Source: Octopus sinensis
Lineage: Eukaryota
Assembly (NCBI RefSeq): GCF_006345805.1
Contig: NC_043008.1
Location: forward strand, 49,538,001 to 49,602,000
DNA: 64,000 bases
Direction of reading: 5' to 3'
Below the pieces are notes generated by a model. It did not search any database, was not told the DNA's origin, and was given only the letters and a program-made list of their open reading frames with translations. A program made the position numbers and the translations under genes. This document shows positions 15,491 through 49,269 of the stretch, piece by piece; the stretch's first letter is position 1, and every line of letters starts with the position of its first letter.

Positions 15491-15998
15491 CAGTGAGCAT
15501 CTCCCTACAATGAAGAACAGTTAACTAGTTTCCTCTACAAGAAACCAGTAATTCCTATGTTTCTCTTTCCATCCTTAATTAATGTCCATTCTATAATGTT
15601 TCCAAAGGCGACGACGTTCACCGACGAATTCCCCTGGAATTCCTCACATGTTTCTCGCTATTTTTTCATGCACAGGCTATGACATTTAGCTGTAATTACC
15701 CAGCAGATTATACACCAATTAGCTCTTTTATATTGTTGTGAATTTGGATCATTTTTCAAAATTATTCGTTAATTTAGAAATCATTAAACAATACATTCAT
15801 TTAACACACTTCGGATGTGTATTAGTTTGCCGGTCTTAACCAGATGGACACTTAAACCACTTCTAAGTTATTTCACACACCATATACTGATTATTTATTA
15901 AGTTTAGTTATATATTTATTGCCAGCCCACATTCTTATATTCAGGTTTTAGCTGTGACAGACATCAGACCGGTTGATTGGGTTTGCGTCTTCAACAAA

Positions 15999-16759
15999 AT
16001 GATTCTTGGCATGTGTCGTCTGTTTTTCCTTCTGTTGGTCTTAACATTTCTTTATGCGTTAGCCGTCTATATATTTGCTCAGGGTTTTCTCCTGAAACGT
16101 ACCGTATTACCAGAGAAAAGTCAATGCGATGTCAACTTTGCGACTGTTTTGGAAAGACACGGAGAGCAGGGATGCTGGATGCACGGACGTTTTCGACGAG
16201 CAATCATCATCATCATCGATGGCTTGCGGTATGATTTCCTCGTCCCCAATAATACAGCTAAAACAAATATGTTGCCTTATATTAACAAATTAACAGTTGT
16301 ACACGATAAATATAACCAAGAGAAAGATCGTGCCATGTTGTATAAATTTATAGCTGACCCTCCTACAACGACCATGCAACGACTGGCTGGACTTACGACC
16401 GGTAGCCTTCCTACATTCATCGAAGCTGGATCGAATTTCCGTTCTACTGAAATTACAGAAGATAACATCATCGATCAGTTAGTTGCTCAGAAGAAGAAGA
16501 TCAAATTCCTCGGAGATGATACATGGATGGGACTTTTTCCCGGGAGGTTTACTAAATCGTTTGCATTTCCTTCTTTCAATGTTAAAGATTTACACAGTGT
16601 AGATAATGGGATTATAAGTCATCTCTCATCAGAGCTTGTCAAGTCCGACTGGCATGTTTCGATTGCTCATTTCCTTGGTGTTGACCACTGCGGACATCGT
16701 TTTGGACCAAACCACACTACTATGGCCGAGAAACTATCACAAATGAACGAAATGCTTGA
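15999..16759 (+). CDS. PIGO: GPI ethanolamine phosphate transferase 3, coding exon 1
   Basis: N-terminal TM then GFLLKR, IIIIDGLRYDF, ADPPTTTMQRL.GLTTGSLPTFIEAGSNF, FLGDDTW..LFP, SFNVKDLHSVDN, HFLGVDHCGH; aaaATG 15999; GA|GTAAGA donor, phase 2. Confidence 0.95.
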
Positions 16760-17488
16760 GTAAGAAGCTCTTATTACTTCTTGGCATGGTCTCTTCTTTC
16801 TTATCTTCCCTTTTTTTTTTAAACAACTTAACTGCATGTGTCATCAGCACACACACATACACAAGCATGCATATACATACATTCATACATACATACATAC
16901 ACAAGCATGCATATACATACATACTCACACATACACACACACACAAGCATGCATATACATACATACTCACACATACACTCACACACACACAGCCCAATAA
17001 TAATAATGCTGTTATGTTGTTGAAACTGCCAGAAATAGCAGCTATATTTTCCTCATATCAAAACCCTAAAGTACAAAGGTAAATAGTGTAGTCCCGTACG
17101 CAGACTGTCTGACAAGAATGTGGAACAGTGTTCGTTTTTCTTGCTTTGTCAAAGAGAGTAGGGCAGTGCTTCCGATCCCACCTTTTATTTTGTGGGGCCT
17201 CAGAGATTTGTTGGCAGCAGGAAGGACGCATCTTCAGCCTAGAAATTTGGACTGAATGATTGCAACAGAGGACCAAATGGTGGTATTAAATTGCTGATGG
17301 TTTAAGTTGACTGGGTTCCATGACTTTAATCACAAGTCTTCTAAACCAGTTTTTGGTCTGAAGCTAAAAAATAACAGCAACAGACAGACATATATACACA
17401 TTGAAAAACAAAATCTATATTTCTCTCTCTCTGTCCTTCTCCATATATTTATATACACACACACAACAAATTATATATATATAAAACA

Positions 17489-17691
17489 GAAAAAAGAGAT
17501 GACAAAGGAATAAATGGTTATCCTATGAGCTTCATTAGCTTAAAGCTGTTTCCACTATAAGATGCTGTTGACTCACAGTTGGGTGCCTGAGTAACACTTT
17601 GTAGCTTCATCAGAGCCTCAACCATGAAGTGCTCTGATGAAGCTAATGAGGTTCATAAGATAATCACTTATTCCTTTGTCATCTCTTTTTC
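17489..17691. repeat. Nested inverted repeat with decayed hammerhead (17538-17616, minus)
   Basis: Outer arms 17489-17541 / 17640-17691; inner AGCTTCATCAGAGC / GCTCTGATGAAGCT; gct-CTGATGA...GAAAcagcttta-agc. Confidence 0.6.
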
Positions 17692-17782
17692 TTATTACCA
17701 TTGTACTCTAATAACACTTTGTTTTGAAACATATTTAGATTGAGTTCGATGCCAGGTTATTAGTACTACAATGACTAGGCAA

Positions 17783-18160
17783 TCATCATCATCATCATCA
17801 TTTAGCGTCCGCTTTCCATGCTAGCATGGGTTGGACGGTTCAACTGGGGTCTGTGAAGCCAGAAGGCTGCATCAGGCCCAGTCTGATCTGGCAGTGTTTC
17901 TACGGCTGGATGCCCTTCCTAACGCCAACCACTCCGTGAGTGTAGTGGGTGCTTTTTACATGCCACCCGCACAGGTGCCAGACGGAGCTTGCAAATGGCC
18001 ACAGACGGATGGTGCTTTTTATGTGCCAGGCAAAGCTGGCAACGGCCACGAATGGATGGTGCTTTTTATGTACCACCGGCACGGAGGCCAGTCAGGGCAG
18101 CGCTGGCAATGGCCACGATCGGATGGTTCGCTTACTTGTCACCAGCACTGGTATTACAGT
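17783..18160 (-). mobile_element. RTE-family 3'-end copy in PIGO intron 1; other copies ~25830-26058, 26200-26418, 28565-28715, 34880-35146, 35925-36100, 4883-5060
   Basis: Near-identical to the 3' UTR/tail of the 47385 element. Confidence 0.8.
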
Positions 18161-18202
18161 TGCATATATATATATAAAATAATAATAATAGTATATATAT
18201 AT

Positions 18203-18390
18203 ATATAGTATTTTATAAGCGGTCACCGTGCAATGACTAAAGAAAATAGTGTGATGATGGGGCATATAAGCCCTTGATGGAAAACCTACTTTTTGTCTGA
18301 TGAGGGCCTACATGCCCCAATATTAGACTATTTTCTTTAGTCATTGCATGGCCAGCACTTAGAAGCTTTAAGCTTATAAAATACTATTAT
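18203..18390. repeat. Inverted repeat, probably a Penelope-like palindromic remnant
   Basis: TGCAATGACTAAAGAAAATAGT / ACTATTTTCTTTAGTCATTGCA plus outer arms; CTGATGAG at ~18297 without the GAAA half. Confidence 0.55.
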
Positions 18391-18673
18391 TATTATTTAC
18401 AGAATTGTAAAAATCAACACTGCTTGCCAAAAACCATCGTGTATACATACATACACACACATACTCAATATAAAATAGTGCACATTTAAACACAACAGAA
18501 ACTACCTATAACAGGTAATTTTACATGCTAGAAGTAGCCAAAATGACCAAAACCACCATTGGTTTTGGTCATTACACTATTTTATATTGAGAATATGTTG
18601 TCTATTGAGTTTTTATACATGCTAGGCCACTGGTAGTGAAATTTCTAAAAATATTTGCTCCCCTATATATATT

Positions 18674-18709
<36 letters not shown>

Positions 18710-18711
18710 TG

Positions 18712-19269
18712 GCGTTGGCACGTAAAAGCACCATCCGCTCGTGTCCGTTGCCAGCCTCGCCTGGCCCCCATGCCGGTAGCACGTAAAAGCACCATCCGTT
18801 CGTGTCCGTTGCCAGCCTCGCCTGGCCCCCATGCCGGTAGCACGTAAAAGCACCATCCGCTCGTGTCCGTTGCCAGCCTCGCCTGGCCCCCATGCCGGTA
18901 GCACGTAAAAGCACCATCCGTTCGTGTCTGTTGCCAGCCTCGCCCGGCCCCCGTGCGGGTAGCACGTAAAAGCACCATCCGTTCATGTCTGCTGCCAGCC
19001 TTGCCTGGCCACCTTGCCTGGCCACCGTGCCGGTGGCACGTAAAAACACCATCCGTTCGTGGCCGTTTGCCAGCTCCGTCTGGCACCTGTGCCGGTGGCA
19101 CGTAAAAAGCACCCACTACACTCACGGAGTGGTTGGCGTTAGGAAGGGCATCCAGCTGTAGAAACACTGCCAAATCTGACTGGGCCTGATGAAGCCTTCC
19201 GGCTTCACAGACCCCAGTTAAACCGTCCAACCCATGCTAGCATGGAAAACGGACGCTAAATGATGATGA
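18712..19269 (+). mobile_element. RTE-family 3'-end copy with internal 61-bp tandem array
   Basis: Unit GCACGTAAAAGCACCATCCG...CATGCCGGTA starts at 18718, 18779, 18840, 18901, 18962; ends in AAATGATGATG. Confidence 0.85.
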
Positions 19270-20125
19270 ATACAAAAAATGGGACAAGAATGCAAACATC
19301 CAGACAGATGATACAAAAAAGGGACAGAAAAAAACAAAAATTGGTCATTTGGAGTTTTCTTTCCTCAGTGGAGTTCCAGATTATCTTTGCAATTTTGGCT
19401 GGTTATACTTGAGATTGCTCCAATCTGGCCAGCCCCAAGGAAATACACAGTTATACACACACTTATGGCAGTATTGTACAATGAGGATGAGTGCTCAACA
19501 GCACATTTAGTGGATAAATGTTCTTAATTTGTGGTTTAACAATGGTAAATTTGTAAGTGGATCATTTGAAAATTGTGGAAGTTCTTCCACATGAAACCAT
19601 TGGTAGCATTGTTAATGCATAAATAAAGAATATCTACATTTATTTTGTTTGAGTCAGTCTCTTGCTATTCTGGAGTTTTGCCAATATGTTGATAGGGTCA
19701 TCAGGCATGTCACAACTTGCCTGGAGACTCTGTGGGCCAAAATCCATAGTTGCAAAAGACTAATTCAACCAAACTCTGCTATGGGAATAAGTACTCTTTC
19801 TTCACTCAACTCTATATCATCATTGTCATTCAACATCTACCTTTTCCCACACTTGCATAGCTTAGAAAGAGTTTATTGAGGCAAATTTTACTATGGCTGG
19901 ATGCTCTTCCTGTTGCCAACCTCACCTATTTCCAGGCAAGGTAATATTTGCCATGGCAGAGTGGAGATGAACAACCTTAATTGCACGACAGTAACTCTCA
20001 TTTACAACCATCATATGATGGCAAGACCAGGGTACACATAAGCACACACGTACACACACACACACTTATACATAATATTTGTACACCAAGCATGATGTTA
20101 TTAACTCAAAATTGTTATGTTTCAG

Positions 20126-20282
20126 TTCTGTCATGAAACTGATGAAAGATGATACCATATTGTTTTTGTTTGGAGATCATGGTATGACTGACACAGGCGA
20201 CCATGGCGGTGACAGTAAAGATGAAATAGAGTCTGGTTTATTTATATACAGTCCATCACGTTTAAGATATCCACCATCAAAG
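20126..20282 (+). CDS. PIGO: PIGO coding exon 2
   Basis: TTTCAG acceptor, phase 2 matches exon 1; DDTILFLFGDHGMTDTGDHGGDS metal-binding motif; AAG|GTGAGC donor. Confidence 0.95.
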
Positions 20283-20372
20283 GTGAGCCACGATTTATAC
20301 ATTGGTTTTACTTTACATTAATTCTTTATAATTTTTTTGTGTTTGGCCAGGATGTAAATATTTGTAGACATA

Positions 20373-22105
20373 CACTTGCATCGGAAATTAATTAGCACTT
20401 CTCAAATTTCTACATTTTCTTACATTTTCTTAATTTAATTAACTTATTATCAGAAACAAACTCGTTTTTAATCAAAAATTTATTAAAACATATCCCAGCA
20501 TACCACATAATTGTTATTAATCGTGAAATTTAGTCAATATCTTGTTGCTCCTCCTTTGGCAGCAATGACAGCTGCTACGCGGGTCGGCATGCTGTCTATG
20601 AGTGCCTGCAGGTACTGTGCAGGGATGGCCCCTCATGCAGCAAGAAGTGCCCCAAACAGCTCGTGTCGGTTCCTGTATTGCTGCACATTCAAATCCCTAC
20701 CCAATCGACTCCAGAGGTTCTCAATAGGGTTCAGGTCAGGTGACTGGCCAGGCCAGTCCATGACTGTCACCCCATGGTACTTGAAGAAACCGGTTGTGAG
20801 CTTGGCTGTGTGGGGAGGCGCGTTGTCCTGCTGGAGCATGTACTCCTCGCCACCAAAGAGGTATCCCGCAGAGGGTAGGGCAGCATTCCGTACTATCACA
20901 ACGTACTTTGCTGCGTTGATGTTGCCTTCGACGGCATAGAGCCGCCCAACACCACTGTAGCTGAACGCCCCCCACACCATCAGACCACCCCCACCATGCT
21001 TCATGGTGGGAGCAATGCAGTCTTTGTTGAAGCGCTCACCCCTGCGGCGTCGCACATGGACAGGCTTGTCACTGACGAGACTGAATCGCGACTCGCCAGT
21101 GAACATCACTGTCCGCCACTGCTGCACGGTCCATGTCTTGTGGGCACGGGCCCAGAGCAGCCGCCTCTTCCGGTTTTGGGCTGTAAGGAGCGGCTTACGG
21201 GCGGTCCTACAGGATTTTAGACCAGCTTCCAGTAATCTGGTCTTGACGGTGGTTGTAGACAACTGCTTCCCTGTCACCTTTTGCATCTCCTCCGCCAGTT
21301 GCCGGATCGTTGTCCTTCGGTTGTTCAGTGACTTTCGGATCAGCATCCGGTCCTCCCGCTGGGTTGTCAGCCTCTTCCGTCCCCTACCCTTTTTGTCAGC
21401 TGCTGATCCGGTTTCCTTGTATTTCTTAAATAAGCACTGAATTGTGCGCCTGGCTACACCACGTTTTCTGGCTATTGCAGCCTCCGACAGCTTCCCACGC
21501 CACGAGAGAGCCTCGTACCATCTCTCCAAGGTCATGCGAGGTCTTGGGCCCATCTAGGAATGAACGATAAAAACCAGTTATTTTCATTAAAACTATTCAT
21601 TTGAATAATGTTATGCTATAACAAAACTGCTATGAGTTATTATTCATTAAACAAAAAAGAAAGGAAGCAGAATTTCTCACTTTATTTGATGTATAACAGA
21701 AAGTTTTGTGAACTGGAAGTGACGTCACCAAGCAGAGTGTAGGAGAATTTGTGAGGAAAAAAAATCTTGCAAATACACAAATCAATTAACCTACGAGCTG
21801 TTCAAAACGTCTTACGCGATGAGAAAACTTAGTACGGTGTGATTTCGGTCCTTGCGAGGCGCTACCTATATCTATTAAACAAAGGAAGATTTGTCTGCAT
21901 CCGCACTCCAAGTTGTTGTTGCACTGCTATGTCAACATCATTAGGCTGTAGACTCTCAAACCGCTCTGCAAACAAAGTTATGTCATCGTTCTGCGCAACA
22001 GTGAACTCGCAACAAAGCAATAGTTTGAGATATGGCCACTAGGTGACAGCACATACCTTGAGTGAAGAGCAAATCAAGGGTGCGTATTAATTTCCGACGG
22101 TAGTG
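20373..22105 (-). mobile_element. Full-length Tc1-family (DD34E) DNA transposon in PIGO intron 2
   Basis: 26-bp imperfect TIRs CACTTGCATCGGAAATTAATTAGCAC / CACTACCGTCGGAAATTAATACGCAC (21/26), TA on both sides (20371-72, 22106-07), internal transposase. Confidence 0.95.
20534..21553 (-). pseudogene. Inactivated Tc1 transposase
   Basis: HTH region, GRGRKR, RKPLLT, QQDNAPPH..WPGQSPDLNPIENLW (D34E); first catalytic Asp reads FTGESRF; TGA at 20633-35 replaces a conserved Trp and the frame continues GAIP..LIDSMPTRVAAVIAAKGGATRY* to 20534. Confidence 0.9.
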
Positions 22106-23598
22106 TAGCTAACACATACTTTGCTTCCTTTACTTCTAATTCTGCACAGGCACAGGAGTGGCTGTGTGGTAAGTGGCTTGCTTACTAACCACATGGTTCT
22201 GGGTTCAGTTTTACTGCATGGAACCTTGGGCAAGTGTCTTCTGCTATAGCCTCAGGCCGACGAAAGCCTTGTAAGTGGATTTGGTAGATGGAAACTGAAA
22301 GAAGCCCGTCGTATATATGTATAAATATGTGTTGGTGTGTCTGTGTTTGTCCCTGCACCATTGCTTGACAACTGATGTTGGTGTGTTTATGTCTCCGTAA
22401 CTTAGTGGCTCGACAGAAGAGACTGATGGAATAAGTCCTGGGGTCAATTTGTTTGATTAAAAGTGGTGCTCCAGCATGGCCGTAATCAAATGACTGAAAC
22501 AAATAAAAGAATACAAACTCATTAATTGTATTTGCCTTTTTGTAAGCTTCTTTGAGCCCAACAAAATAACCAATCTGGACTGTGTCCCTTCTGTCAACCT
22601 CAGACAATTAGATCCCAAGTTCTTGTATACATTAAACCTAATGGTTAGGACAGTCATCTCATGATTGGAAGGTGGTGAGTTCAATTCACAGCGATGCATT
22701 GTGTCCTTAAGCAAGACACTTTATTTCACATTGCTCCAGTCCACTCAGCTGGCAAAAATGAGTTGTACCTGTAATTAAATAAGGGCCAGCCTTATCATCT
22801 TCTGTGTTATGCTGAATCTCTCTGAGAATTATGTTAAGGATACACTTGTCTGTGGAGAGCTCAACCACTTGCACATTGATTTCACAAGCTGACTGTTCTG
22901 TTGATCGGATCAGCTGTAACCGTCAGCGTTGTAACTGATGGAATGCCACGTTAACCTCATCAACCTTTCCTCTTCACCTACATATTACTGGACCTTTTAC
23001 TCACCTCGTCCTTCACCGTTGACAGATTGTCTCCCTATTTGCAAACTACCTCTACTATTCCCACATAAAATGATTTTGATGGAAACAAAATTTTTGCCCA
23101 TGACATTGGCAAATCATTTGTATATCTCTTGATCTGCGGTTCTCAACTGCGGCTCACAGGGCTACATGCGGCCCACAAACATCCTTCTGGCATGGGTGGG
23201 ACTATATACACACACAATGGACTTCTTTCAGTTTCCATCTACCAAATCCATTGACAAGGTTTTGGCCCATCCTGGGATTATAGAAGACTTGTACAAGGTA
23301 CTACCCAGTGGGATTCAACCCCAAAACCATCTAGATGGGGGGGGGGGACTTCTTAAGCGCACAGTCATTCATGCATAAAACAAGAAGTTCCTGGAAATCT
23401 CTAATAAAGATGCAACAAACTTTTAATTATTTCATGGCAGGAGTATAGACATGATTGTGGTTTCCATAGAAACTGATGTAGAAAAAGAGATGATGATGAT
23501 ATCAATAATAGTAATAATACCGATAATAATTATGATGATGATGATGATATTTTAAAAGTATAAATACTAATTTTTATTTTTTACAATTCTATTTCCAG

Positions 23599-25354
23599 AC
23601 TTCACCTTCGGCAATTCCAAGCATCGCTCAAATTGACATTGTTCCAACTCTGTCTCTCCTGTTAGGTGTTCCGATTCCTTTCTCAAATGTTGGGATGATC
23701 ATTAATGAGCTCTTCTCTTTCTGCCCGTGGTGGGATACTTATAGTGATGCCAAACAGCTCTACCACAACATAAAAGCACTTCGACTGAATGCACACCAAC
23801 TCGACCAATATTCTCAGATTTATTCACAAACCTCTGGAGAACCGCTGCTAAAAAACAAGTTTCTACAGCTTCACCAAAAGTTTGAGAAAGCAGAAAAAGA
23901 ATTCAGCCAATTTGTAACAGAAATGGTGAAATCTCAAGACATGGCTTCTGACAGTAAATGGTTGGCACGTCTAAAAAATAATTATGTCACATTTATTTCT
24001 GAAACTAAAGAGATGTGCCAAGATTCTTGGGCAAAGTTTGACACCACACAGATTCTTCTTGGCTTATTTCTTATGTTTTTTGCCATTTTTGTAAATATCT
24101 ATTTCTTAAAACTATCTTTTGTCAGAGATACTTCTTACCCCAAATCTGTCATCTTTCTGCTGGTTGCCATATTTATAATTTCTATTTTATGCATTCTTCA
24201 ATCTCTATATTTCAAAGACAGTTCTGTGTTGAATATTCCTTCCATAATGATTATATTTGATGTTGCTATTCTTGCACCGGTCATTTACTTAGTTATCACT
24301 AAAAGCAAACTCCCTACTCTGTCTTCTCTCAAAAAAACATTCAGTCTGCGTAAATACGATCTCGTCACTAACTGTTCCTGTTTAACGACCATTATCTATA
24401 TTGCTGCCTTCTTTTCTAACAGTTACGTTGTTTATGAGGATTGTGTTGTTACATTTTTAATTCTTACTCACCTCTGTTGTTACTTTGTCCAACTCTTGAG
24501 AAAAATACTCCATGACAAGACGGCCCATCATCGAGATGGACCGAGTAAGCGCAGTAAATCTGTGAGCAAGTTTGACATTGGTTACATCTTCATCCATCCA
24601 GCATTCATTATCTTTCTTCTAGTTTTACTGTTCTGTCTTGTCTTGAGATTCTCCGTATCTTTCCGCACGTGTCGTGAAGAGCAATGGACTTGTATTCATT
24701 CAATATTTACTTTCCCCCTGTCGAACCTTTCAGACAGCGGAAGCAAAAATTTACGTTATTTTTTCAGTGTTGCTTGTATAATTACTGTCATTGTTGTATC
24801 TCATCAGTGGTTACGTTTCTATGGAAACCTAAACAGCAACATAACCACTGTCTTATTTTATAAATATGGATTCCCAGCTGCAACCTTTTGTATTGGATTA
24901 CATTGGGCTGTTCAAGGTCTCCCAGCCAAAGAACTGGACAGTCTACCCTACATACAACATGTCTTTCTGGCAAGATTGGCTTATGCACTCCTCATATTAT
25001 CTATGTTGTCTTTTATAATCAGCCCATTATGCGTTCATCTTGTACAAACCAACAGGAAGCGGTTGAGTATTCCTTCGTGGCGCTCTTCTGTTACTGAGAT
25101 AATTCCGGAAGTTTTCAAACAGTTACATAAAAACTGGGGGGAAGAAAAAGAAGAAAACTCTGAAAAGCCTGTAATTGCCTGTGGCCTGGGGACGGTCCAG
25201 ACTGCCTCCAGCGTTTACTGCGTGACCATGTGCTCTTTATTAGTGAGTTTGTTACTTGGTGATGGTATGACCCCGAGTATATTACTGGCTTTAATCCTCA
25301 TTTGCATTTTCCTAGAGCTACATTCCATGTTTTACCACACATCAGTAAAGTTAG
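23599..25354 (+). CDS. PIGO: PIGO coding exon 3 (large, multi-TM)
   Basis: TTTCCAG acceptor; QIDIVPTLSLLLGVPIPFSNVG, WAKFD, FSNSYVVYE, CREEQ motifs; G|GTAAGT donor, phase 1. Confidence 0.95.
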
Positions 25355-25425
25355 GTAAGTTCATTTTGAAAACATTTTCTTTTATATTATTTTGCAAAAA
25401 AAGAATATTAAAAAACATACAAGAA

Positions 25426-25507
25426 ATCATCCTCACCATTATCATTGTCATCATCATCATCATTGTCGTCGTCACCACCATCATCATCATTGTCACCACC
25501 ACCACCG

Positions 25508-25540
<33 letters not shown>
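25426..25540. repeat. (CAT/CAC/CGT)n trinucleotide tract at the start of PIGO intron 3
   Basis: Directly visible. Confidence 0.9.
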
Positions 25541-26480
25541 GCATTAAGGTAGTGAGATAGCAGAAACGTTAGCATGACTGGAAAAATGTTTAATGGCATT
25601 TTATTCATCTTCATGTTCTGAGTTCAAATTCCGCCGAGGTCAACTTTGCCTTTTGTCCTTTCGAGGTCAATGAAATAAAGTACCAGTTGATGTGATTGGC
25701 TTACCACCCCAACTACTCCAGAATTGCTGGCCTTGTGCTAAAATTTAAAACCTCTCTTCTTACTTTAAACTCTCTACACCTGGCGCCACAAAGCCACCTC
25801 CCTCGATTCCACACCCCCTACACAGTCGAAGGATCTTGTCTTGCAAGTTACTTGGTGACCTCCCTAGTGCAGGTGCCATGAAAAAAGCACCCCGTATGCA
25901 CAGTAAAGTGGTTGGCATAAGGAAGGGCCTCCAGCAATGGAAATCTTACCAAAGCAGACAGAGCTTGGTGTAGCCTCCTCCCCAGTTCTTTGAATCTTGT
26001 TGAACTGTCCAACCCATGCCAGCATGGAATACAGATGTTAAATGATGACGATGACGATTGGTTAATTTTTCTTCAACAATAATGTTCCTTTTGAGTATTT
26101 AGCCTCACGGAGGCAATGACCAACATGTTTGGCATTATGTGGTGCTTGAGAAGAAGATCCATCAAGCCGAACAAAATCGCATTTGTGGTAGATACTGGTG
26201 TCACGCAAATGGCACCTGTACTGGTGGCACATAAAAAGCTCCCCATTACACTCTTGGAGTGGTTGGCATAAGGAAGAGCATCCAACTGTAGAAAAATATG
26301 TCAAATCAGATTGGAGCCTGGTGCAGCTGTCCAGCCTTACCAGCCTTGGTCAAACTGTCCAACCCATGCCAGCATGGACCACGAACGTTAAGTTATGATG
26401 GTGATGATGATGATGATGAATAATGTCTGCCAAGTTTGTCAGCCTTATGTAAAAATTCTTTTGTTTTGTTGTTTTGCCAG

Positions 26481-26860
26481 AGAATGCTGAAGTCTCCTGG
26501 ACATCAATAACCATGTGGAGTCTGCTGTCAATGTATTTCTTCTATGCCACTGGACATCAAGCTACAATCCAAACAATTCGATGGGAATCAGCATTTGTTG
26601 GTTTCCATGGAGATTTTACAACTCATATTATTCCATCAGTTTTGATCACACTCAACACATTTGCTGGACCAATTCTGTTTACTGTAGCGGCACCATTATT
26701 GCTATTTTGGCCACACATTAACAAACCAGCCGCAGAATATTTCAGCCAAAAGAAGAAAACTGAAGAGTGGAGAGGAGACGTGGTATTGTTTGAGAAGAAT
26801 GTTGTGCCTCAGTTGTTGTTCATGCTGTACACCCGTTTGTTTCTCTTCTCTTCGTTAGCA
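26481..26860 (+). CDS. PIGO: PIGO coding exon 4
   Basis: TTTTGCCAG acceptor, phase 1; FFYATGHQATIQTIRWESAFVGF, LNTF; GCA|GTAAGT donor. Confidence 0.95.
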
Positions 26861-27443
26861 GTAAGTATTTCATTAACCTTTCTATTATTTACCAGTTTTA
26901 AGACAGCGAGCTGGCAGAATTGTTAGCAGTATTTCATCTGTTGCTATGTTCTGTGTTCAGATTCCTCCGAGGTTGACTTTGCTTTTCATCCTTTCGGGGT
27001 CGATAAATTAAATACCAGTTACACACTGGGGTTGATGTAACCAACCAGTCCCCTCCTACAAAATTCCAGGCCTTGTGCCTATAGTAGAAAAGATCATTTA
27101 CAGTGAGCTGGCAGAATCGTTAGCAGGCTGGGCAAAATGCTGAGTGGCATTTCATCTGTCGCTACGTTTTGTGTTCAAATTCTGCTGAGGTTGACTTTGC
27201 CTTTCATCCTTTCGGGGTCGATAAATTAAGTACCAGTTGCATACTGAGGTTGATGTAATCAATTACCCCTGTCCCCCACAATTTCAGGCCTTGTGCCTAT
27301 AATAGAAAGGATTATTTACCAGTTTTAGCCATTGGACTGTGACTATACTAGGATACCATCCATCATCACGAGCTTCTATAGCATTCTAGTCACTGGGATG
27401 TGACCATACTGCAGCACCACTTCCATGAATCTTAATATCTTAA

Positions 27444-27952
27444 CCCTTTTGTTATCAACCCGGCTGAAACTGGCTCTGGTTCTGTCGTACTAATGTCTTG
27501 TTTTCAAAAGTTCTGAATTAAAATCTCCCACCAAACCTTAATCACAATTTATGTTCCTAACATTTGCTAAATGATAACTAAATTATTTTACTAAATTCTT
27601 TAAGATTAAATGAAAGAAACGCAGAGCAACTCAACAGAAAGATGGCAACAAAAAGGTTAAAGATAATCAAATGTGTCTCCAATTTGCACAAGATTTGGCT
27701 GCTATTTCTAACAAGCCAATCTGCAAATTAACCTTTTTGATACCAACCCAGCTGAAACTGGCTCTGGCTCTGTAGTACAAATATCTTGTTTTCAAAAGTT
27801 TTGAATTAAAATCTTCCACTAAACCTTAGTCACAATTTATGTTCCTAACACCAGCTTAATGATAACTAAGTTATTTTACTAAATTCTCTGTTATATTTAA
27901 AGTAATTGAAGGAAACACAGAGCATCTCAACAAAAATATGGTAACAAAATGG
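27444..27952. mobile_element. Two direct copies of a TTAA-flanked MITE (27444-27656, 27732-27952) in PIGO intron 4
   Basis: TTAA-CC(C/T)TTTTG...CAAAA(A/T)GG-TTAA ends; bodies highly similar to each other. Confidence 0.75.
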
Positions 27953-28040
27953 TTAAATTGTTTCAGGAATGGGACCATGCTTGTGTGTATACAAATGAAT
28001 AAACCCACGTGTAATTTTGTTTGTTTGTTTTATTTTTCAG

Positions 28041-28250
28041 TTACTCAGCAGCATGACGGCAGCGGCGCTTCATAGAAGACATTTGATGGTTTGGAAGATA
28101 TTTGCTCCTCGGTTTATATTCGCTGCTGCAATGTCTGGAGTGACCTTTTTAACTGGTTTAATTACCTTCCTGTTGATGATTCGTGTCCAAGCTGCTCTGT
28201 CGCGTTGGTTTTATAAACTAGCCGAATCTTACGGCCAGTCTCAGTCTTGA
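28041..28250 (+). CDS. PIGO: PIGO last coding exon
   Basis: TTTTTCAG acceptor; HRRHLMVWKIFAPRFIF C-terminal signature; TGA at 28248-28250. Exons total 3264 nt = 1087 aa. Confidence 0.95.
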   Translation, partial: LLSSMTAAALHRRHLMVWKIFAPRFIFAAAMSGVTFLTGLITFLLMIRVQAALSRWFYKLAESYGQSQS

Positions 28251-30480: not shown

Positions 30481-32573
30481 AGAGCAACAAGCTGGCCACT
30501 GTGCCGGTGACATGTAAAACACACCATCCGAGTGTGATCGTTATCCGTGTCGCCTTACTGGCATTTGTGCTGGTGGCATGTAAAAAAAACATTCGAGCAA
30601 GGTCGTTGCCAGTGCCGCTGGAGTGGCTCCTGTGCAGGTGGCACATAAAAAGCACTATTTCAACGTGGACGTTGCCAGTACCGCCTGACTGGCCCTCGTA
30701 CTGGTGGCCTGTAAAAGCACCCACTACACTCTTGGAGTGGTTGGCACCAGCTGTAGAAACTCTGTTTATGTCCCTGTAATTTTGTGGTTTGTTAAAACAG
30801 ATCAATTGAATAAGAATCAAGCTTAAAAAACAAAAAAATAAATACTGGAGTTAATCCATTCTTCAAGGCATTGCTGCCCCAGCATGGCCGCAGTCTAATG
30901 ACTGAAACAAGTAAAAGATAAAAGATTTCTAGGGAGTTTGTTTTGAATGTAGTGAAAATGTTTTCATACATACTCTTTTACTTGTTTCAGTCATTTGACT
31001 GTGGCCATGCTGGAGCACTGCCTTTAGTCAAGCAAATCGACCTCAGGGCTTATTCTTTGTAAGCCTAGTACTTATTCTATCGGTCTCTTTTGCTGAACTG
31101 CTAAGTTACAGGGATATAAACACACCAGCATCAGTTGTCAAGCGATGATGGGGGGACAAATACAGGCACACATATATACAACAGGCTTCTTTCAGTTTCC
31201 ATCAACCAAATCCACTCACAAGGCTTTGGTCGGCCCGAGGCTATAGTAGAAGACACTTGCCCAAGGTGCCATGTAACTGAACCTGGAACCATGTGGTTGG
31301 TAAGCAAGCTACTTATCACACAGCCACTCCTGCACCTATGCATATGAGATCCATGGAAACACCACGTTTCATAAATGTTGAGGTTTCTATTTTTGATGCA
31401 TAAATTCATAGAACTTTCTAAAACCTTTTCATTATGTTAAATACATTGTGTCTTCTTCGTTATTGTTCCATAATTAAGACTGTTTAAAAGTGTCAGTTGC
31501 GTGGTGGTGGAGGTGTACTGTTTTAAAATTAAAAACAAACAACATCCGTAGCTACTTCGCTAACATATTACACTTTCATTGGAAAATCTGTTTTCTTATC
31601 TATAAGTTTATCATTATACCTCCTAATATAAGCTTTCTTTCCACTGTCCACCCATCGATGTAATTGTCAATGTGGATAGATAAATAGATTGACAGATAGA
31701 TGTAAAAAACTGAGTATTAAAATGTTATTTTGTTAGTCACAATAATATATGTTTAAAATTTCCCTCTGCTAAGCACTTTACACTTCTCTCTCTCTGCCAC
31801 ATACTTCAACAAACTTTTTAACCATGTGACAGCATAATGCATCAGCTGACATGGCATCTCTCACATTATTTGCTTCTCCCTCTTAATATAACTGCCCTGC
31901 TCTCTCCATCTGCGTTTTTTTAACCTCACTACCAGAACATCACTCCTCTGTTAAACATTGTATTTGTAGCTCTCTTTCTCTATGTCTCACCTTTTAACTA
32001 ACTTTTTAATCATGTAATAACTATTACTTTCCCCTACCTCACATCATTAACACTTCTCTCTCCCTTCAACTAATCCTTTGACAGTGTAACACATTTGGCC
32101 TTAGCACATTAACAGTAGATGATGATGATGATGCAGATGTTAGATATTAAAATGGAGGGAAGGCCAATAGCAGTGTCCGTTTTACTGGAACTAACTGACC
32201 ACTAAATATACTGACTTTAGTCACTATTTATGCCACTGATATCATTGGTAAGTGGATTAATACCTTTCAGTCACTTTTCCTGAGATTCTGCTTCTAGTTT
32301 AAAAAACAGACAAGCAAAAAACAACACCAAACATATAACATTGTGTTTCGAGTCTTATTTTTAATGATATGTGGCAGGGTTTTATCTCATTCCAAGGGTT
32401 CCTGGTGAGAATAGATTCTTTCTTGTTGGACTTTGTTAAAAAAGCTCTCAGATAGTCTCATGTAGATATGTAGTTAGGGTTTGAAACCACCATCTGTAGA
32501 CTACAGAGGATTTACAATCTTGTTATTAAGCCATAGGCCGGCACTTCAATATTTCAGTCAATTGCAGATTCTT

Positions 32574-32702
32574 TTACACCTCCATATTATTGGAACCATT
32601 TTTAAATACATTAGTTAATTCTGCAAAAGACATCACAAACCATTTTGCTTCTTCCTTCACTTTCTTCCTCACAACATTACCTCCAAAACCAATAAAAGCA
32701 TC
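32574..32702 (-). CDS. PSPH: PSPH last coding exon
   Basis: DAFIGFGGNVVRKKVKEEAKWFVMSFAELTNVFKNGSNNMEV*; CCTAG acceptor; total CDS 699 nt = 232 aa. Confidence 0.95.
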   Translation of the reverse strand, partial: DAFIGFGGNVVRKKVKEEAKWFVMSFAELTNVFKNGSNNMEV

Positions 32703-32814
32703 CTAGGAGAGAAAAAAGAAAAGAAAACAAAAAAAAATTAACCGATATTTGACTTTATGAATAATGGTTGGTTGTAGGAAGGGCATTCAGCCACAACACT
32801 ACTTCTTTGATTTA

Positions 32815-33035
32815 AATGGTTAAAATACCTCTCAGTCACTTTGTAGTGCAGTGCCATCACAGTTATTACTGTACTGTGTTAATAACAATCCTTCCCCAGA
32901 ATATTCAGGTGTTTACTTGTGGATAAACCACCCATAAAAGTAAATTGGGTACTTGATATCATAAGTTGAAAAATTTTAATTAGATTAATTACTTTAGTAA
33001 TGTAAACAAATCATGGAATGAATAATTCTGATCAA
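32815..33035. repeat. About 220-bp sequence duplicated in direct orientation at ~36736-36953 (PSPH introns 4 and 1)
   Basis: Shared GTCACTTTGTAGTGC..CCATCACAGTTATTACT..AATTAGATTAATTACTTTAGTAATG..TGAATAATTCTGATCAA. Confidence 0.85.
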
Positions 33036-33944
33036 AACTCAAACTATGTATATTACTTAAGTCTTTTGCTCTCTATGGATCATGGACCATTAATGATTTG
33101 TCTCCACTCTTTTCAATTACAGACTGCCTTTTCTTCTTCTCCCCAGTTGACTTATTGCTTTTTTGTTTCCTGCAGTTTCCTTTCAGATTTTGCTGCACCA
33201 CCTCATATTTATCCCTGAGGAAAGGCCTTCCTCTCCCAGGTTTTGTTGGTTTTCAATTATCATCAATGCCTCTATAACTTTGCTTTTTTTTCTAGGTAGA
33301 AGTGTTGACCCTACGGGAACCTCTTTTTTACTCCTGGGAAGAGATGATCTACATCATTCTGGCAATAATTAAGACTTTGACCTGTTCAACACGACAGGCT
33401 CCAGCAGGAGCCTGTCTTTTGCTAGCATAGCTGTCAGAGCCACTGGGACATACAAGCCACCACATCACAATGAGGACTGGACCCAGTTGTAGCATCAGTG
33501 TTTTTGTACAGTGATCATAGCAGCCAGTTCAACTCAGCTAACACAAAAATACATGTGAAAATGTGTGATAAACCTCGAATACAATCAATCATAAATAGCT
33601 TTTAGAAAATTACTATTTTCAAATCTCACAACATGAAATATTCAACAACAGTACTTTGTAATAAAGATTGTTTGCTAACATAACATGGCAGTCCTGGTTT
33701 AGGACGAATGTTGCTGTAATTTAGCCCCAGGAGACATCGTCTCCAGCTGGCTATACGACACAATCTGTGTCCTTATATTTTCAAACAAGAGAATCTAGTA
33801 TCCCCACTCAGCTCAAAACAATATCTGTGTATCACGATTTCCAGGTTATTTCCCTTTTAATAGCACAGAAAATAGTTACGTTGCACATTTGACTGCAATC
33901 CAAGCTGTTATTTCAACGTGCATAGAAATATTAAGATTACTTAC

Positions 33945-34093
33945 AGCAGGAGGAGAAGCTTCCATGTCAGTTGCACCATCACCGATCATAATTAAATTGC
34001 TATAATTATGTTTATCTTTCAAAAGTTGAATCACTTGTCCTTTACCACCACTCTTGGCTGTGAGCTCTGCTTTATCAAAACTAACATAATTAC
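33945..34093 (-). CDS. PSPH: PSPH coding exon 4
   Basis: SGGKG (motif III Lys), MIGDGATDMEASPPA (motif IV); TTTTCAG and GTAAGT boundaries. Confidence 0.95.
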
Positions 34094-34287
34094 CTGAAAA
34101 CATAAAAATGGTCAATTAAAACTGCTGTTAAATGATGACGATGTGATGAATAATATTATGTCAAGCAGTTTAAAGAAACTTTAGTAGTTATCATAATAAA
34201 AGTGGTTCAGATGTAGGTGTGGTCAAAAATGGCTTGAGTTCAGTCCTATTGTGTGGCACCTTCGGCAAGTGTTTTCTATGATCGTCC

Positions 34288-34525
34288 TTTTTTTTACACC
34301 TCCATATTATTGGAACCATTTTTAAATAGATTAATTAATTCAGCAAAAGACATCACAAACCATTTTGCTTCTTCCTTCACTTTCTTCCTCAAGACATTTT
34401 TCAGCAGTGTAGAGTTACAGGTCATAACATCCACAAGGAATGCAAACATCATAATACTGTTTTGCTCAGCTAATAACAAGTGAAGCAATGAAATGTCACA
34501 TTCACAAACACACACTCATGTATAC
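34288..34525 (-). repeat. Sense-orientation partial copy of PSPH last exon with unrelated 5' flank, in intron 3 (copy A)
   Basis: 34294-34398 near-identical to 32574-32678; flanked on both sides by halves of one SINE. Confidence 0.9.
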
Positions 34526-35146
34526 AACCAAAGCCTTGTGAGTAGATTTGGTAGATGGAAAGCCTGACATCATCATCGCCATCATTTATCATCGATTTTC
34601 CATGCTGGAATCGGTTGGACAGTTTGGCGGGATCCAACAGGAGACTGTGTTATGTTCTGCTCTCTGCTTTGGCATAGTTTCTATGGCTGGATGGTTATAA
34701 GTTTGAATATGAAACAGCCTATTGCCTTGAGTGTCTGGATGTACAGTGTGTAGAGATGCCACTCACAGATGCACTGCGAAGTGCTTAATGGAATGCCATT
34801 GTGCTGAAGTTGGTGTTGCTTAGCTGACCTGGCATACACAGATGTGTGCTTCAAAATATGTATACATGAGTGTGTGTGTCATCATCATCGTTTAATGTCC
34901 GCTTTCCATGCTAGCATGGGTTGGACGATTTGACTGAGGGCTGGTGAACTAGATGGCTGCACCAGGCTCCAATCTTGATCTGGCAGAGTTTCTACAGCTG
35001 GATGCCCCTCCTAACGCCTACCACTCTGAGAGTGTAGTGGGTGCTTTTACGTGCCACCGGCATGGGGGCCAGTCAGGCGGTACTGGCAACGACCTTGCTC
35101 GAATGTTTTTTCACGTGCCACCAGCACAAGTGCCAGTAAGGCGATT

Positions 35147-35460
35147 GTAACATTTCATTGCTTCACTTGTTATCAGCTGAGCAAAACAGTATTATGATGT
35201 TTGCATTCCTTGTGGATGTTATGACCTGTAACTCTACACTGCTGAAAAATGTCTTGAGGAAGAAAGTGAAGGAAGAAGCAAAATGGTTTGTGATGTCTTT
35301 TGCAGAATTAATTAATCTATTTAAAAATGGTTCCAATAATATGGAGCTGTAAAATAAATTCTGCAAGTGACTGAAATATTGAAGCGCCAGCCTATGATTT
35401 GATAACAAGCTTGTAAATCCTCAGTAGCCTACAGATGGTGGTTTCAAACCCTAACTACAT
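35147..35460 (+). repeat. Inverted copy of PSPH last exon plus proximal 3' UTR, in intron 3 (copy B)
   Basis: 35248-35460 is the reverse complement of 32468-32678 (about 90% identity by eye); 35147-35352 is the reverse complement of copy A. Confidence 0.9.
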
Positions 35461-35597
35461 GTAGAATAAAAAAAAAATCCCTTACATGAAAAACAGATAA
35501 GAGTTGGTGACAAGAGCCTCCTACCACAGATATAGTTCCCATTCAACCCATACTAGCATGAAAAAAAAAACCTATGTTGAATGGATAATGTACTTAC

Positions 35598-35743
35598 CAT
35601 CTTGATCAAACTGCAACCTGTTTGCAAATATATGATCTTTTGGAATGTTCACTTCTTTGGCGACAGTCTCAATGATGGTACGGAATCCTCCCGAAATAAG
35701 ATAGATATCAATGTTTTTTTTCTGTAGTATAAGTATCAGGTCT
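35598..35743 (-). CDS. PSPH: PSPH coding exon 3
   Basis: IYLISGGF (HAD motif II), IFANRL; G|GTAAGT donor, phase 1. Confidence 0.95.
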
Positions 35744-36183
35744 CTGCGAATCCAAAAGGGGTCAAACATGCAGTGAAATGCTATATTATGTTATTTCTTT
35801 ACTAAAAAAAATTGTAATGGCTTGGAAGAAAATCATTTTATGTCTAATGGCAAACTGGTTGAAAAAAATGTTTTCATTTTTTAATTACCAAATTTGTTTA
35901 ATTTACTAGAATTAGAAATGTAAAGCACCATCCGAACGTGGCCGATGCCAGCGCCGCCTTGACTGGCTTCTGTGCCGGTGGCATGTAAATAGCACCCACT
36001 ACACTCACGGAGTGGTTGGCGTTAGGAAGGGCACCCAGCTGTAGAAACACTGCCAGATCAGATTGGAACCTGGTGCAGCCTTCTGGCTTACCGGGGTCTG
36101 ATAATTAATTAAAGACAAATAAATGTAAAAAAAAAAATGGAAAAGAAGAAAAGCAAATGAAACAAACAAACAAAATAACTTAC

Positions 36184-36318
36184 TTGACTCCATCGGTTAA
36201 TTTTGGTGGATGAGTTTCTATAAACTGTTTAAGAATACTTTTACTTGGTTTAATAATATTTAACCTAGTTCTTAATGCATCTTGGAAGCTGATGTTACCA
36301 TTCATTGCTTCAATGGTA
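36184..36318 (-). CDS. PSPH: PSPH coding exon 2
   Basis: TIEAMNGNISFQDALRTRLNIIKPS...HPPKLTDGVK; AG and GTAAGT boundaries, phases consistent; missing from the ORF track. Confidence 0.95.
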
Positions 36319-37677
36319 CTAAAAAGAAAAGGGGAAAAATACAATGAAAAAAAATACAAAATACCAATAGATCAATATCTATTGATTAGTATCAGGCCTT
36401 TTTATTTCATCACTATCATCACCATTATCATCATATTGACAAAAGAACTGCAGATGGAGATGACCTGTCTAACTTATTGCAATCATGGAAAAACATATGT
36501 AAAAATGATGATGGTAGTGGTGGAGGGGTTGGAGATGCCTGGCAGCAACGATGGTGGTGGTGGAGGGGATGATGGTTGTGACGAAGAAGACAATGATGAA
36601 AGTGCATATCAAGCTTAATTAATTAACCAGAGAGGAGGAAATGGTGACCGTAACCATTGTAGATCTTACTGAACTGGAGAGGTTGACGCAATTTGTGCTG
36701 AGTCCAAGGGCCATTTCTGATGAAAGTGAAGTGGAATGGTTAAAACAACCCTCGGTCACTTTGTAGTGCTGTACCATCACAGTTATTACTTTACTGTGTT
36801 AATAATAATATTTCCCCAGAGTATTTACTTGTTTGTTTGTGGAAATCCCACCCATAAAGTAAAGTAAAGTGGGTACATCGTACTAGATTTAATTTTAATT
36901 AGATTAATTACTTTAGTAATGAAAACAAATCATGGTATGAATAATTCTGATCAAGGAACATAGGGGAGGTAACCCTGGAATCTTAACAATTGACTATGAA
37001 CTGCATAGTGAGTCTGAATGTTTAGCAGCAGAGGGATAACTTTAGCCATGTTTCAGTCTTATTTGTCTTCCTTTGCAAAATCTGATAACAATCAAAGGAC
37101 CGAAGGTTTATTTATTTCTTTTTGTAAGGGGTCTTAAAAACTTGAAAGAATGATCAAGTGCAAGTAGCATCCAGGGATGCCTGCTGCATAAAAAACTTAG
37201 TAGAATGGGTACTAGCGTATTTGATGTAGTAAGAACAGATTGACTAAAAATATGAGCTGTATGCATGTGTAAAGAAATTTCAGTACAGCTACAGATTTTC
37301 ATCTCTGACCACCCAACCCCTTAAACCCTAACACCAACGTCAATCCTAAACTCGAAACGCTATTGTAATTCTAAGCAAACCCTGAGCCTCATTTAAAGGG
37401 AGCCACTGTTTACAGACCAGCAAACACTTGGGAAATAAGAATCTCACTCACACAAACATACATGCACATACACATATACACAAACATACATCAGTGTTTT
37501 AACGTCCACTTTTCCATGCTTGCATGGGTCGGACGGAATTTATTGAGGCAGATCTTCTGTGGCCAGATGCCATTCCTCTTATATGCACACAGCTCATATT
37601 TTTAGTGTATGTACAAAAACCAAAACTAAATTGCTGTCAGTTCTGGGATATCTCTTTTACAATAGAATGGAATTATA

Positions 37678-38115: not shown

Positions 38116-38255
38116 CATTTTCTAATTTCTTCACCAACTCCACAGAACTTTGCAAGTTCATCAATTGCTTCTTCTTTGCAAAGAGTGGAGTCAACATCGA
38201 AACAAACAGCATCAGCAGAAAGCCACAATTTCACTAATTCATCATTGGAACCCAT
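38116..38255 (-). CDS. PSPH: Phosphoserine phosphatase, coding exon 1
   Basis: MGSNDELVKLWLSADAVCFDVDSTLCKEEAIDELAKFCGVG with HAD motif I DVDST; acceptor TTTTTAG at 38262 implies an upstream UTR exon; TG|GTAACC donor. Confidence 0.95.
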
Positions 38256-48610: not shown

Positions 48611-49269
48611 ACAGAAATCCTAGTGGGGTAAAGTCATAAAAATCAAGTTTTATTTGAAGCAATATCATGAGATTTGGTAAAGGAAAACTTAAATCAAGAT
48701 ATTAGCTGACAATTAAGGGAGCTGGATTATAATTAAATTAATATATAGTTAGCATGTTCTTTTACCTCAGTACTTCTTTATTAAATACCAGTATATAGCA
48801 ATTGATCAATATTCACTGATACCATCTGATAAGTTAGTATTTAAGTTTATAATATGTATGAATATTAATTTATTTCTGGAGAATTTCTTTTTCCTCCCTC
48901 TATTGTGGTAAAAGTTTGATATATGCTCAAAAGTATTCATAAAACATTTTATCCTTTTGTTATAATTCTTCTTCTTAATAATCCTCTGAGTAACTCTAAA
49001 CTTTAACTTTATACAATAAAGCAGTATTGCTTAAAATATTAACTACATGATAAGATTTCCCCTGTTTCATTATCAATGGTCTGCCGCTGGCAAGCCCCTT
49101 TAATTGTCAGCTAACATCTTGATTTAAGTTTTCCTTTACCAAATCCCATGATAATGCTTCAAATAAGTCTTGATTATTATGACTATACCCATTAGGATTT
49201 CTGTTTCTCGCCATAAAGGTACCCTTTATGATGCGAAACCCAGGGTCACCCTATAAGCTGGCCTTCATC

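What the first reader, a model, noticed from the sequence alone, without database searches (positions are those of the whole stretch)
32468..35460. PSPH intron 3 carries an antisense copy of its own last exon and 3' UTR, plus a sense decoy copy
Seen: 35248-35460 is the reverse complement (about 90%, ~213 nt) of the last exon and proximal 3' UTR (32468-32678), and 34294-34500 is a second, sense copy that is the reverse complement of 35147-35352. The pre-mRNA order is exon3 - antisense B - sense A - exon4 - exon5, so B can pair either locally with A or long-range with the true exon 5/UTR, looping out exon 4, which holds HAD motifs III and IV. Established: ADARs edit exons paired to intronic complementary sequences, and coleoid cephalopods recode extensively by A-to-I editing. 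Inference: a self-made editing-complementary sequence with a competing decoy could control recoding of the A-rich RKKVKEEAK segment, stop/UTR editing, or exon 4 splicing.
Basis: partly seen in the sequence, partly recalled or inferred. Interest (0 to 1): 0.72.

Follow-up and report, generated by a model that had tools for sequence, protein, structure and literature searches.

The report
Self-cancelling exon copies in octopus intron
An octopus serine-making enzyme gene carries a backwards copy of part of its last exon in an intron, plus a later partial copy of that copy, likely left by DNA-copying slips; the two copies are predicted to pair with each other, one RNA fragment shows four likely edits there, and the real exon is spliced normally with no majority editing in four RNA assemblies, so this is likely an ordinary by-product rather than an evolved editing switch.

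Summary
B (35248-35460) is a 92% inverted copy of PSPH exon 5 plus UTR. A is a 97% inverted copy of part of B, but only 111 of its ~240 nt come from the exon. The parts are nested insertions: B sits inside an old repeat, A was copied from B into a SINE-like element, and another SINE then split one arm.

Folding gives B's coding half to A and leaves only about 100 nt free to pair with the UTR. One intronic RNA contig (depth 4.2) has four A>G changes inside arm A. The spliced mRNA contigs of 4 of 4 RNA runs include exon 4 and list no A>G in the copied stretch of exon 5 and UTR (one difference is unlisted). Contigs cannot show minor editing. Exon 5 has drifted away from B. Comparable inverted pairs occur in 12 of 100 sampled 10-kb stretches.

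Verdict: likely a neutral templated duplication with repeat-type intronic editing; a selected editing or decoy switch is not supported. The scan noted this kind of copy before, at two other loci of this genome and in other genomes.

The parts
38116..38255 (-). PSPH coding exon with HAD motif I (DVDST); annotated isoforms add N-terminal sequence upstream
36184..36318 (-).
35598..35743 (-). PSPH exon 3; its donor lies 137 nt from B
35457..35513 (.). Far part of the old dispersed repeat that hosts B; the A-run after B belongs to this repeat and is not a retrocopy tail
   Evidence: with B removed, alignments to L006, L007, L008 and L009 run through the join
35248..35460 (+). Copy B: inverted copy of exon 5 (from nt 25) and 106 nt of UTR, antisense in the pre-mRNA; 35359-35460 has no partner in A; ATGT/ACAT microhomology at the ends
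35143..35247 (+). X': near part of the old repeat, now part of the hairpin arm
34879..35142 (.). Young high-copy SINE-like element that splits X' (the rest of X' is at about 34858-34878)
   Evidence: class named from own knowledge
34399..34527 (-). X: copy of X', carried along with A
34288..34398 (-). Copy A: sense copy of B's coding half, ending in the A-run at the copied stop codon
34321..34332 (-). Four likely A-to-I sites (34321, 34322, 34323, 34332) in arm A, seen in one intronic contig of run X10
34200..34280 (.). Left half of the SINE-like element split by A+X; the right half is 34527-34561
33945..34093 (-). PSPH exon 4, 149 nt, holding the GGKG lysine and GDGATD; skipping it would shift the frame
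32468..32702 (-). True exon 5 (stop at 32576-32574) and proximal 3' UTR; the source of B
32815..33035 (.). Intron 4 segment with an 83% direct copy at 36735-36954; a third local duplication in the same gene
   Evidence: 2 matches of 2 candidates in the genome

Best explanation
B and A are likely neutral scars of two successive local template-switch copying events, and they are predicted to fold on each other into a ~216-bp intronic hairpin that ADAR likely edits as it edits any inverted repeat, while the mature mRNA assembles as normally spliced with no majority editing. Step 1 (anatomy shown, mechanism inferred): 213 nt of exon 5 and UTR were copied, inverted, 2.6 kb away into an old repeat, with short microhomology. 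Step 2 (anatomy shown): that junction region was recopied, inverted, into a SINE-like element, giving A+X. Step 3 (shown): a young SINE split one arm. Step 4 (predicted): B meets A first, 0.6-0.9 kb later in transcription, and binds it about 9 kcal/mol better than it binds the exon, so the coding exon stays free. Only B's 102-nt tail could pair with the UTR, and only if intron 3 is still unspliced 1.5 kb later. Step 5 (one contig): the hairpin is edited and leaves with the intron.
For: Host repeat runs through the empty B site in 4 of 8 genome copies. The host SINE is split around A+X. A shares B's chimeric repeat|exon junction. A third local duplication lies in the same gene. Background in 100 sampled 10-kb stretches: 32 hold an inverted pair of at least 100 nt and 85% within 3.5 kb, 12 hold an arm of at least 200 nt and 90%, and 4 hold separate arms of sequence not seen elsewhere in the sample. 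Fold: A pairs with B at about 1.0 and coding exon 5 at about 0. Four A>G fall among 28 As inside the arm against 0 among 63 As outside it, Fisher p 0.008. Spliced exon 2-3-4-5 contig in 4 of 4 RNA runs; differences over exon 5 and UTR number 0, 0, 1 and 5, and the only listed A>G (32406, outside the copied stretch) is also a DNA allele in X5. Exon 5 changed I to T and L to V away from B. The part of B left free is the more diverged part: 10 of 106 in the UTR vs 5 of 105 coding, not significant.
Against: All RNA data are assembled contigs of unknown tissue, so editing or skipping in a minority of molecules, or only in neurons, would be missed. The exon 4-exon 5 joint row is not listed (the tool skips a repeat at 32703-32743), so an exon 3-exon 5 joint could be hidden too; 37 joint rows and 17 difference rows were not shown, and 1 of X16's 5 differences is unlisted. 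A ends exactly at the copied stop codon, so it shields just the coding part, which looks purposeful (the breakpoint is an A-run). The B tail:UTR helix of about 100 bp is predicted at 0.8-1.0. B and A persist in runs up to about 4% divergent in the introns. No distant relative's intron could be read.
Confidence: 0.8

Rival explanations
1. Compensatory shield: B was mildly harmful because it paired with the coding end of exon 5 and drew editing, and A was favoured because it sequesters exactly that half of B.
For: Without A, 101 of 105 coding nt pair with B; with A, 0. A ends at the stop codon. The four sites edited in A correspond to a Lys codon and an Asn codon of exon 5.
Against: The breakpoint is a homopolymer where slips are expected. 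The nearest template is also the likeliest to be recopied. B persisted long enough to be recopied. Such pairs are common. No population data.
Confidence: 0.06
2. One reading: B is a selected editing-complementary sequence for exon 5 and UTR, and A is a regulated competitor that sets recoding or exon 4 skipping.
For: The geometry allows it; B:exon 5 duplex energy is -318 kcal/mol at 37 C; coleoids recode heavily in neurons (PMC9068888, passages).
Against: Coding exon 5 is predicted unpaired with B. No majority editing and exon 4 included in 4 of 4 runs. The 3 annotated O. sinensis isoforms in the cluster all keep exon 4. The exon drifted away from B. B covers no splice site. Skipping would delete catalytic motifs and shift the frame.
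Confidence: 0.05
3. Incidental but real effect on the mRNA: B's free tail causes low-level UTR editing, or the hairpin acts as an editing inducer element for sites in exons 3 and 4.
For: The tail:UTR helix is predicted. The hairpin lies 137 nt and 194 nt from the flanking exons. Inverted Alus about 200 nt away raise NEIL1 editing (PMC4053975, passages).
Against: No majority A>G in exons 3 or 4 or in the copied UTR stretch; the one in exon 4 (34059, X16) is a DNA allele in X5. UTR pairing needs delayed splicing of intron 3.
Confidence: 0.06
4. Hairpin RNA: the A:B stem is diced into small RNAs antisense to exon 5 that damp PSPH mRNA.
For: A 216-bp, 97% stem whose B strand is about 95% complementary to coding exon 5. 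Small-RNA genes can arise by inverted duplication of their target (10.1101/682591, search listing only).
Against: The stem is intronic and appears edited, which works against dicing (own knowledge). No small-RNA data were seen.
Confidence: 0.02
5. Assembly artefact.
For: No single contig spans the whole stretch.
Against: Junction-crossing DNA contigs: 35122-35284 in X1, 33827-34321 in X4, 34362-34551 in X5, 35255-35800 in X8. The copies differ from each other by 3-8%.
Confidence: 0.01

Closest known systems
Hyper-edited intronic inverted repeats (Alu-type dsRNA; Porath et al. 2017, PMC5625713, passages; the ubiquitous repeat-directed editing class in coleoids, PMC9068888, passages)
   Same: A long, near-perfect, short-loop intronic duplex with clustered A>G inside an arm; octopus is reported there as unusually rich in such duplexes.
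   Different: The arms are local copies of the gene's own exon plus a repeat fragment, not two independent SINE insertions.
Local templated inverted insertions (FoSTeS/MMBIR-type; PMC7025897 passages, PMC5453318 abstract, PMC2621351 listing only)
   Same: Nearby template, inverted orientation, 1-5 nt microhomology, no poly(A) tail and no clean target-site duplication.
   Different: A fixed germline event, seen twice in series and nested with SINEs; the polymerase involved cannot be told.
Intragenic inverted exon duplications causing skipping: CHM exon 12 (PMC8756506) and MANBA exons 8-11 (PMC6549551), passages
   Same: Inverted exon copy inside the same gene, microhomology, predicted pre-mRNA hairpin.
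   Different: Those copies span whole exons with their splice sites and exon skipping is seen; B covers no splice site, is sequestered by A, and exon 4 is included here.
Editing-complementary sequences and editing inducer elements (GRIA2, recalled; NEIL1 and Gabra-3, PMC4053975 passages)
   Same: Intronic sequence complementary to an exon; a long stem close to exons.
   Different: No edited exonic site and no conservation are shown, and the exon drifts away from its complement.

Membership tests
Editing-complementary sequence (ECS) | Intronic sequence complementary to an exon of the same pre-mRNA | tested here: met
Editing-complementary sequence (ECS) | The exon-intron duplex is the favoured fold | tested here: not met
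   Coding part about 0 paired to B; only the UTR part pairs. Model prediction.
Editing-complementary sequence (ECS) | Reproducible A-to-I editing of the paired exon in mRNA | tested here: inconclusive
   None listed at majority level in 4 of 4 RNA contigs; minor editing is invisible in contigs
Editing-complementary sequence (ECS) | Conserved pairing or compensatory changes | tested here: not met
   Exon changed away from B at 2 codons; 5 vs 3 wobble test p 0.73. Small numbers; no distant intron available.
Editing-complementary sequence (ECS) | Editing is lost when the element is deleted | not testable with these tools
   needs a minigene
Edited intronic inverted repeat | Long near-perfect inverted arms within about 2 kb in one transcript | tested here: met
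   216 nt, 97%, 639-nt loop
Edited intronic inverted repeat | Clustered A>G confined to the arms | tested here: met
   4 of 28 As in the arm, 0 of 63 outside; one contig of depth 4.2, so provisional
Local templated insertion | Nearby template, interrupted host sequence, junction microhomology | tested here: met
Processed retrocopy | Poly(A) tail and target-site duplication | tested here: not met
   The A-run after B belongs to the host repeat, and A's A-run is templated by B
Processed retrocopy | Exon-exon junction | tested here: inconclusive
   B lies wholly within one exon, so an RNA template is not excluded
Exon-skipping inverted duplication (CHM/MANBA type) | Copy covers splice sites and the exon is skipped | tested here: not met
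   No splice site in B; exon 4 is in all 4 mRNA contigs
Hairpin RNA / endo-siRNA locus | 21-23 nt RNAs from both arms | not tested
   no small-RNA run was listed or laid

The most novel reading that the evidence does not exclude
A suppressor caught in the act: an accidental antisense exon copy exposed a housekeeping enzyme's last exon to the very active octopus ADAR, and a second copy ending exactly at the stop codon was selected because it absorbs that editing in a sacrificial intronic hairpin, while the free tail still allows tunable UTR editing.
Probability: 0.06. Interest if true: 0.65.

Novelty: new member of a known kind. Interest (0 to 1): 0.22.

Why it matters
As most likely read, it matters little. 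It is a clean example of how local copying slips create ADAR substrates in octopus introns, and a mapping trap, because reads from A and B can fake edits or variants in PSPH exon 5. If the shield or switch reading held, it would show how a new editing-complementary element is born or neutralised in the animal group with the most recoding. A three-construct minigene could test that.

Tried and rejected
Retrocopy of the mRNA end: rejected, because the apparent poly(A) belongs to the host repeat.

A as an alternative last exon: a cryptic AG at 34470 would join exon 3 in frame. No such joint was among the 15 of 52 joint rows shown, and the protein search with exon 5 returned 1 hit among 4 candidates, the normal protein. 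That is weak evidence.

Coverage gaps: arms B and X had no RNA contig cover at 91% likeness while the loop had some in X12. This fits heavy editing but is not counted as evidence. No RNA holder was listed on record; RNA status rests on the spliced contigs.

Conservation rate of arms versus flanks: not computable. Only 40 of 152 difference rows were shown, and arm contigs may be collapsed.

Literature: no paper holds both 'octopus' and 'phosphoserine phosphatase'. No PSPH or SERB hit in the 1 supplement held for PMC8382921; editing-site tables I could not see may list PSPH sites. One cephalopod editing paper recalled by id was not held. No look-alike window in other genomes.

Pfam gave only sub-threshold HAD hits for single exons.
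Full report
Observation. Self-alignment confirms all three segments: B (35248-35460) against 32468-32678 at 92.0%, A (34289-34398) against 32569-32678 at 94.5%, and the arms 34288-34503 and 35143-35358 at 97.2%. The genome search returned only these three places. The gene is PSPH on the minus strand. The database names the protein as from Octopus sinensis. Intron 3 is 1504 nt. Exon 4 is 149 nt and holds the GGKG and GDGATD motifs; skipping it shifts the frame to a stop after 8 codons.

Anatomy and order of events. The 105 nt that A and B share beyond the exon (X) are an old dispersed repeat, with 8 further genome matches at 74-85%. With B cut out in silico, 4 of those 8 copies align straight across the join. 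So B was inserted into X, and the A-run after B is part of X. B begins 24 nt into the exon and ends in mid-UTR, with ATGT- and ACAT-type microhomology. A carries the same X|exon junction and sits between the two halves of a SINE-like element, so A was copied from B. X continues at about 34858-34878 beyond a young SINE, which therefore came last. An intron 4 segment is also duplicated upstream of exon 2 at 83%. Template switching is the inferred cause. An RNA template for B is not excluded, because B contains no intron or junction.

Presence in other runs. Four DNA runs were laid as contigs. Contigs cross the SINE|X'|B region in X1, the start of A in X4, the A|X junction in X5, and B through exon 3 in X8 (14 differences in 550 nt). 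X5 and X8 differ from the window by up to about 4-5% in some intronic contigs, so the arrangement predates these close lineages. No contig spans everything, high-copy SINEs crowded the tables (40 of 152 difference rows shown), and no distant relative could be read.

Selection. B and exon 5 differ by 15 substitutions and a 2-nt indel: 5 of 105 coding nt and 10 of 106 UTR nt (Fisher p 0.28). Of these, 5 transitions keep a G:U pair, 3 break the pair (p 0.73), and 7 are transversions. O. bimaculoides PSPH has I and L where A and B do, while O. sinensis and O. vulgaris have T and V, so the true exon moved away from B at two codons. Run X16 matches B at UTR positions 32539 and 32543. This is what drift predicts, but the numbers are small.

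Folding. Duplex energies at 37 C are B:A -358, B:exon 5 -318, B coding half with A -169 against -160 with the exon, and B tail:UTR -159 kcal/mol. The 3.4-kb minimum-energy fold at 20 C and 37 C has both helices at once. The partition function gives about 0 for coding exon 5 paired to B, 0.8-1.0 for UTR 32572-32473, and about 1.0 for A+X. Forbidding A to pair lets 101 of 105 coding nt pair with B. These are model results that ignore co-transcriptional splicing, which would further disfavour the long-range helix.

RNA. No run was on record as RNA. Four small runs from four studies each gave one spliced contig joining exons 2-3-4-5. Differences over exon 5 and UTR were 0 (X9), 0 (X10), 1 (X12, G>A in the mRNA) and 5 (X16). 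Of X16's five, four are listed: one is A>G at 32406, outside the copied stretch and also a DNA allele in X5; three are not A>G; one is unlisted. X10 also has an intronic contig, 34095-34363, depth 4.2, with 5 differences. Four are listed, all A>G on the transcript strand, at 34321, 34322, 34323 and 34332. All four lie inside arm A (4 of 28 As against 0 of 63 outside, p 0.008), and two have a 5' U. A, B and the exon all have A at these sites, so a paralogous variant does not explain them, and B is the only complement found. This is provisional evidence that the local hairpin forms and is edited.

Background. In 100 stretches of 10 kb (80 spread over 24 contigs, 20 flanking the window), 32 hold an inverted pair of at least 100 nt and 85% within 3.5 kb, and 12 hold an arm of at least 200 nt and 90%. 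Four hold separate arms of sequence not seen elsewhere in the sample, which scales to roughly 3,000-28,000 genome-wide ('unique' only relative to 1 Mb). Some such copies must come from exons. The scan's unchecked notes list two other loci in this genome and several in other genomes with the same pattern; these are leads, not support.

Comparison. It works like an Alu-type edited intronic inverted repeat (PMC5625713 and PMC9068888, passages) made by local templated insertion (PMC7025897 passages; PMC5453318 abstract). It is not filed as an editing-complementary sequence: the favoured fold and conservation tests were not met, and exon editing is inconclusive. It differs from the CHM and MANBA skipping duplications (passages) because no splice site is covered. 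An inducer role as at NEIL1 (PMC4053975, passages) remains possible at low level. Searches listed no paper on this locus; subscription papers and editing-site tables were not visible.

Verdict. A real feature, likely neutral (0.8), and a new member of a known kind; interest 0.22. The boldest reading left open is A as a selected shield for the coding exon (0.06).

Noticed in passing
window 32580-33001, run X4: One DNA contig carries copy A's bases at 32614 and 32622 inside the true exon 5. Probably a low-depth chimera; gene conversion from A is the alternative.
   Followed up: partly
window 32601-32603: O. bimaculoides PSPH ends just before this Lys codon, 9 residues shorter than O. sinensis and O. 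vulgaris; the same codon's copy is the edited triplet in arm A.
   Followed up: partly
window 34297-34470: The old repeat X is open and in frame with copy A; a cryptic acceptor at 34470 would give an alternative last exon lacking the exon 4 motifs. No RNA support was seen.
   Followed up: partly
window 32815-33035 and 36735-36954: Older direct local duplication (83%) between PSPH introns, with no other genome match.
   Followed up: partly
window 48611-48723 and 49093-49204: Another local inverted duplication of non-dispersed sequence, 90%.
   Followed up: no
window 15891-28247 (+) and 20636-21553 (-): Exons that look like a GPI ethanolamine phosphate transferase (PIGO-like) gene, with a Tc1/mariner-like transposase ORF in an intron; names from recall, ORFs.
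   Followed up: no
window 32579, run X12: G>A in the mRNA changes the last codon from Val to Met; likely a polymorphism.
   Followed up: no
window 34095, run X10: The edited intronic contig stops one base short of the intron's 3' end, as an excised intron might; could be chance.
   Followed up: no
L108:1-1084 and L083:1-402: Long near-perfect palindromes (100% and 97.5%) in sampled stretches; real fold-backs or assembly artefacts.
   Followed up: no
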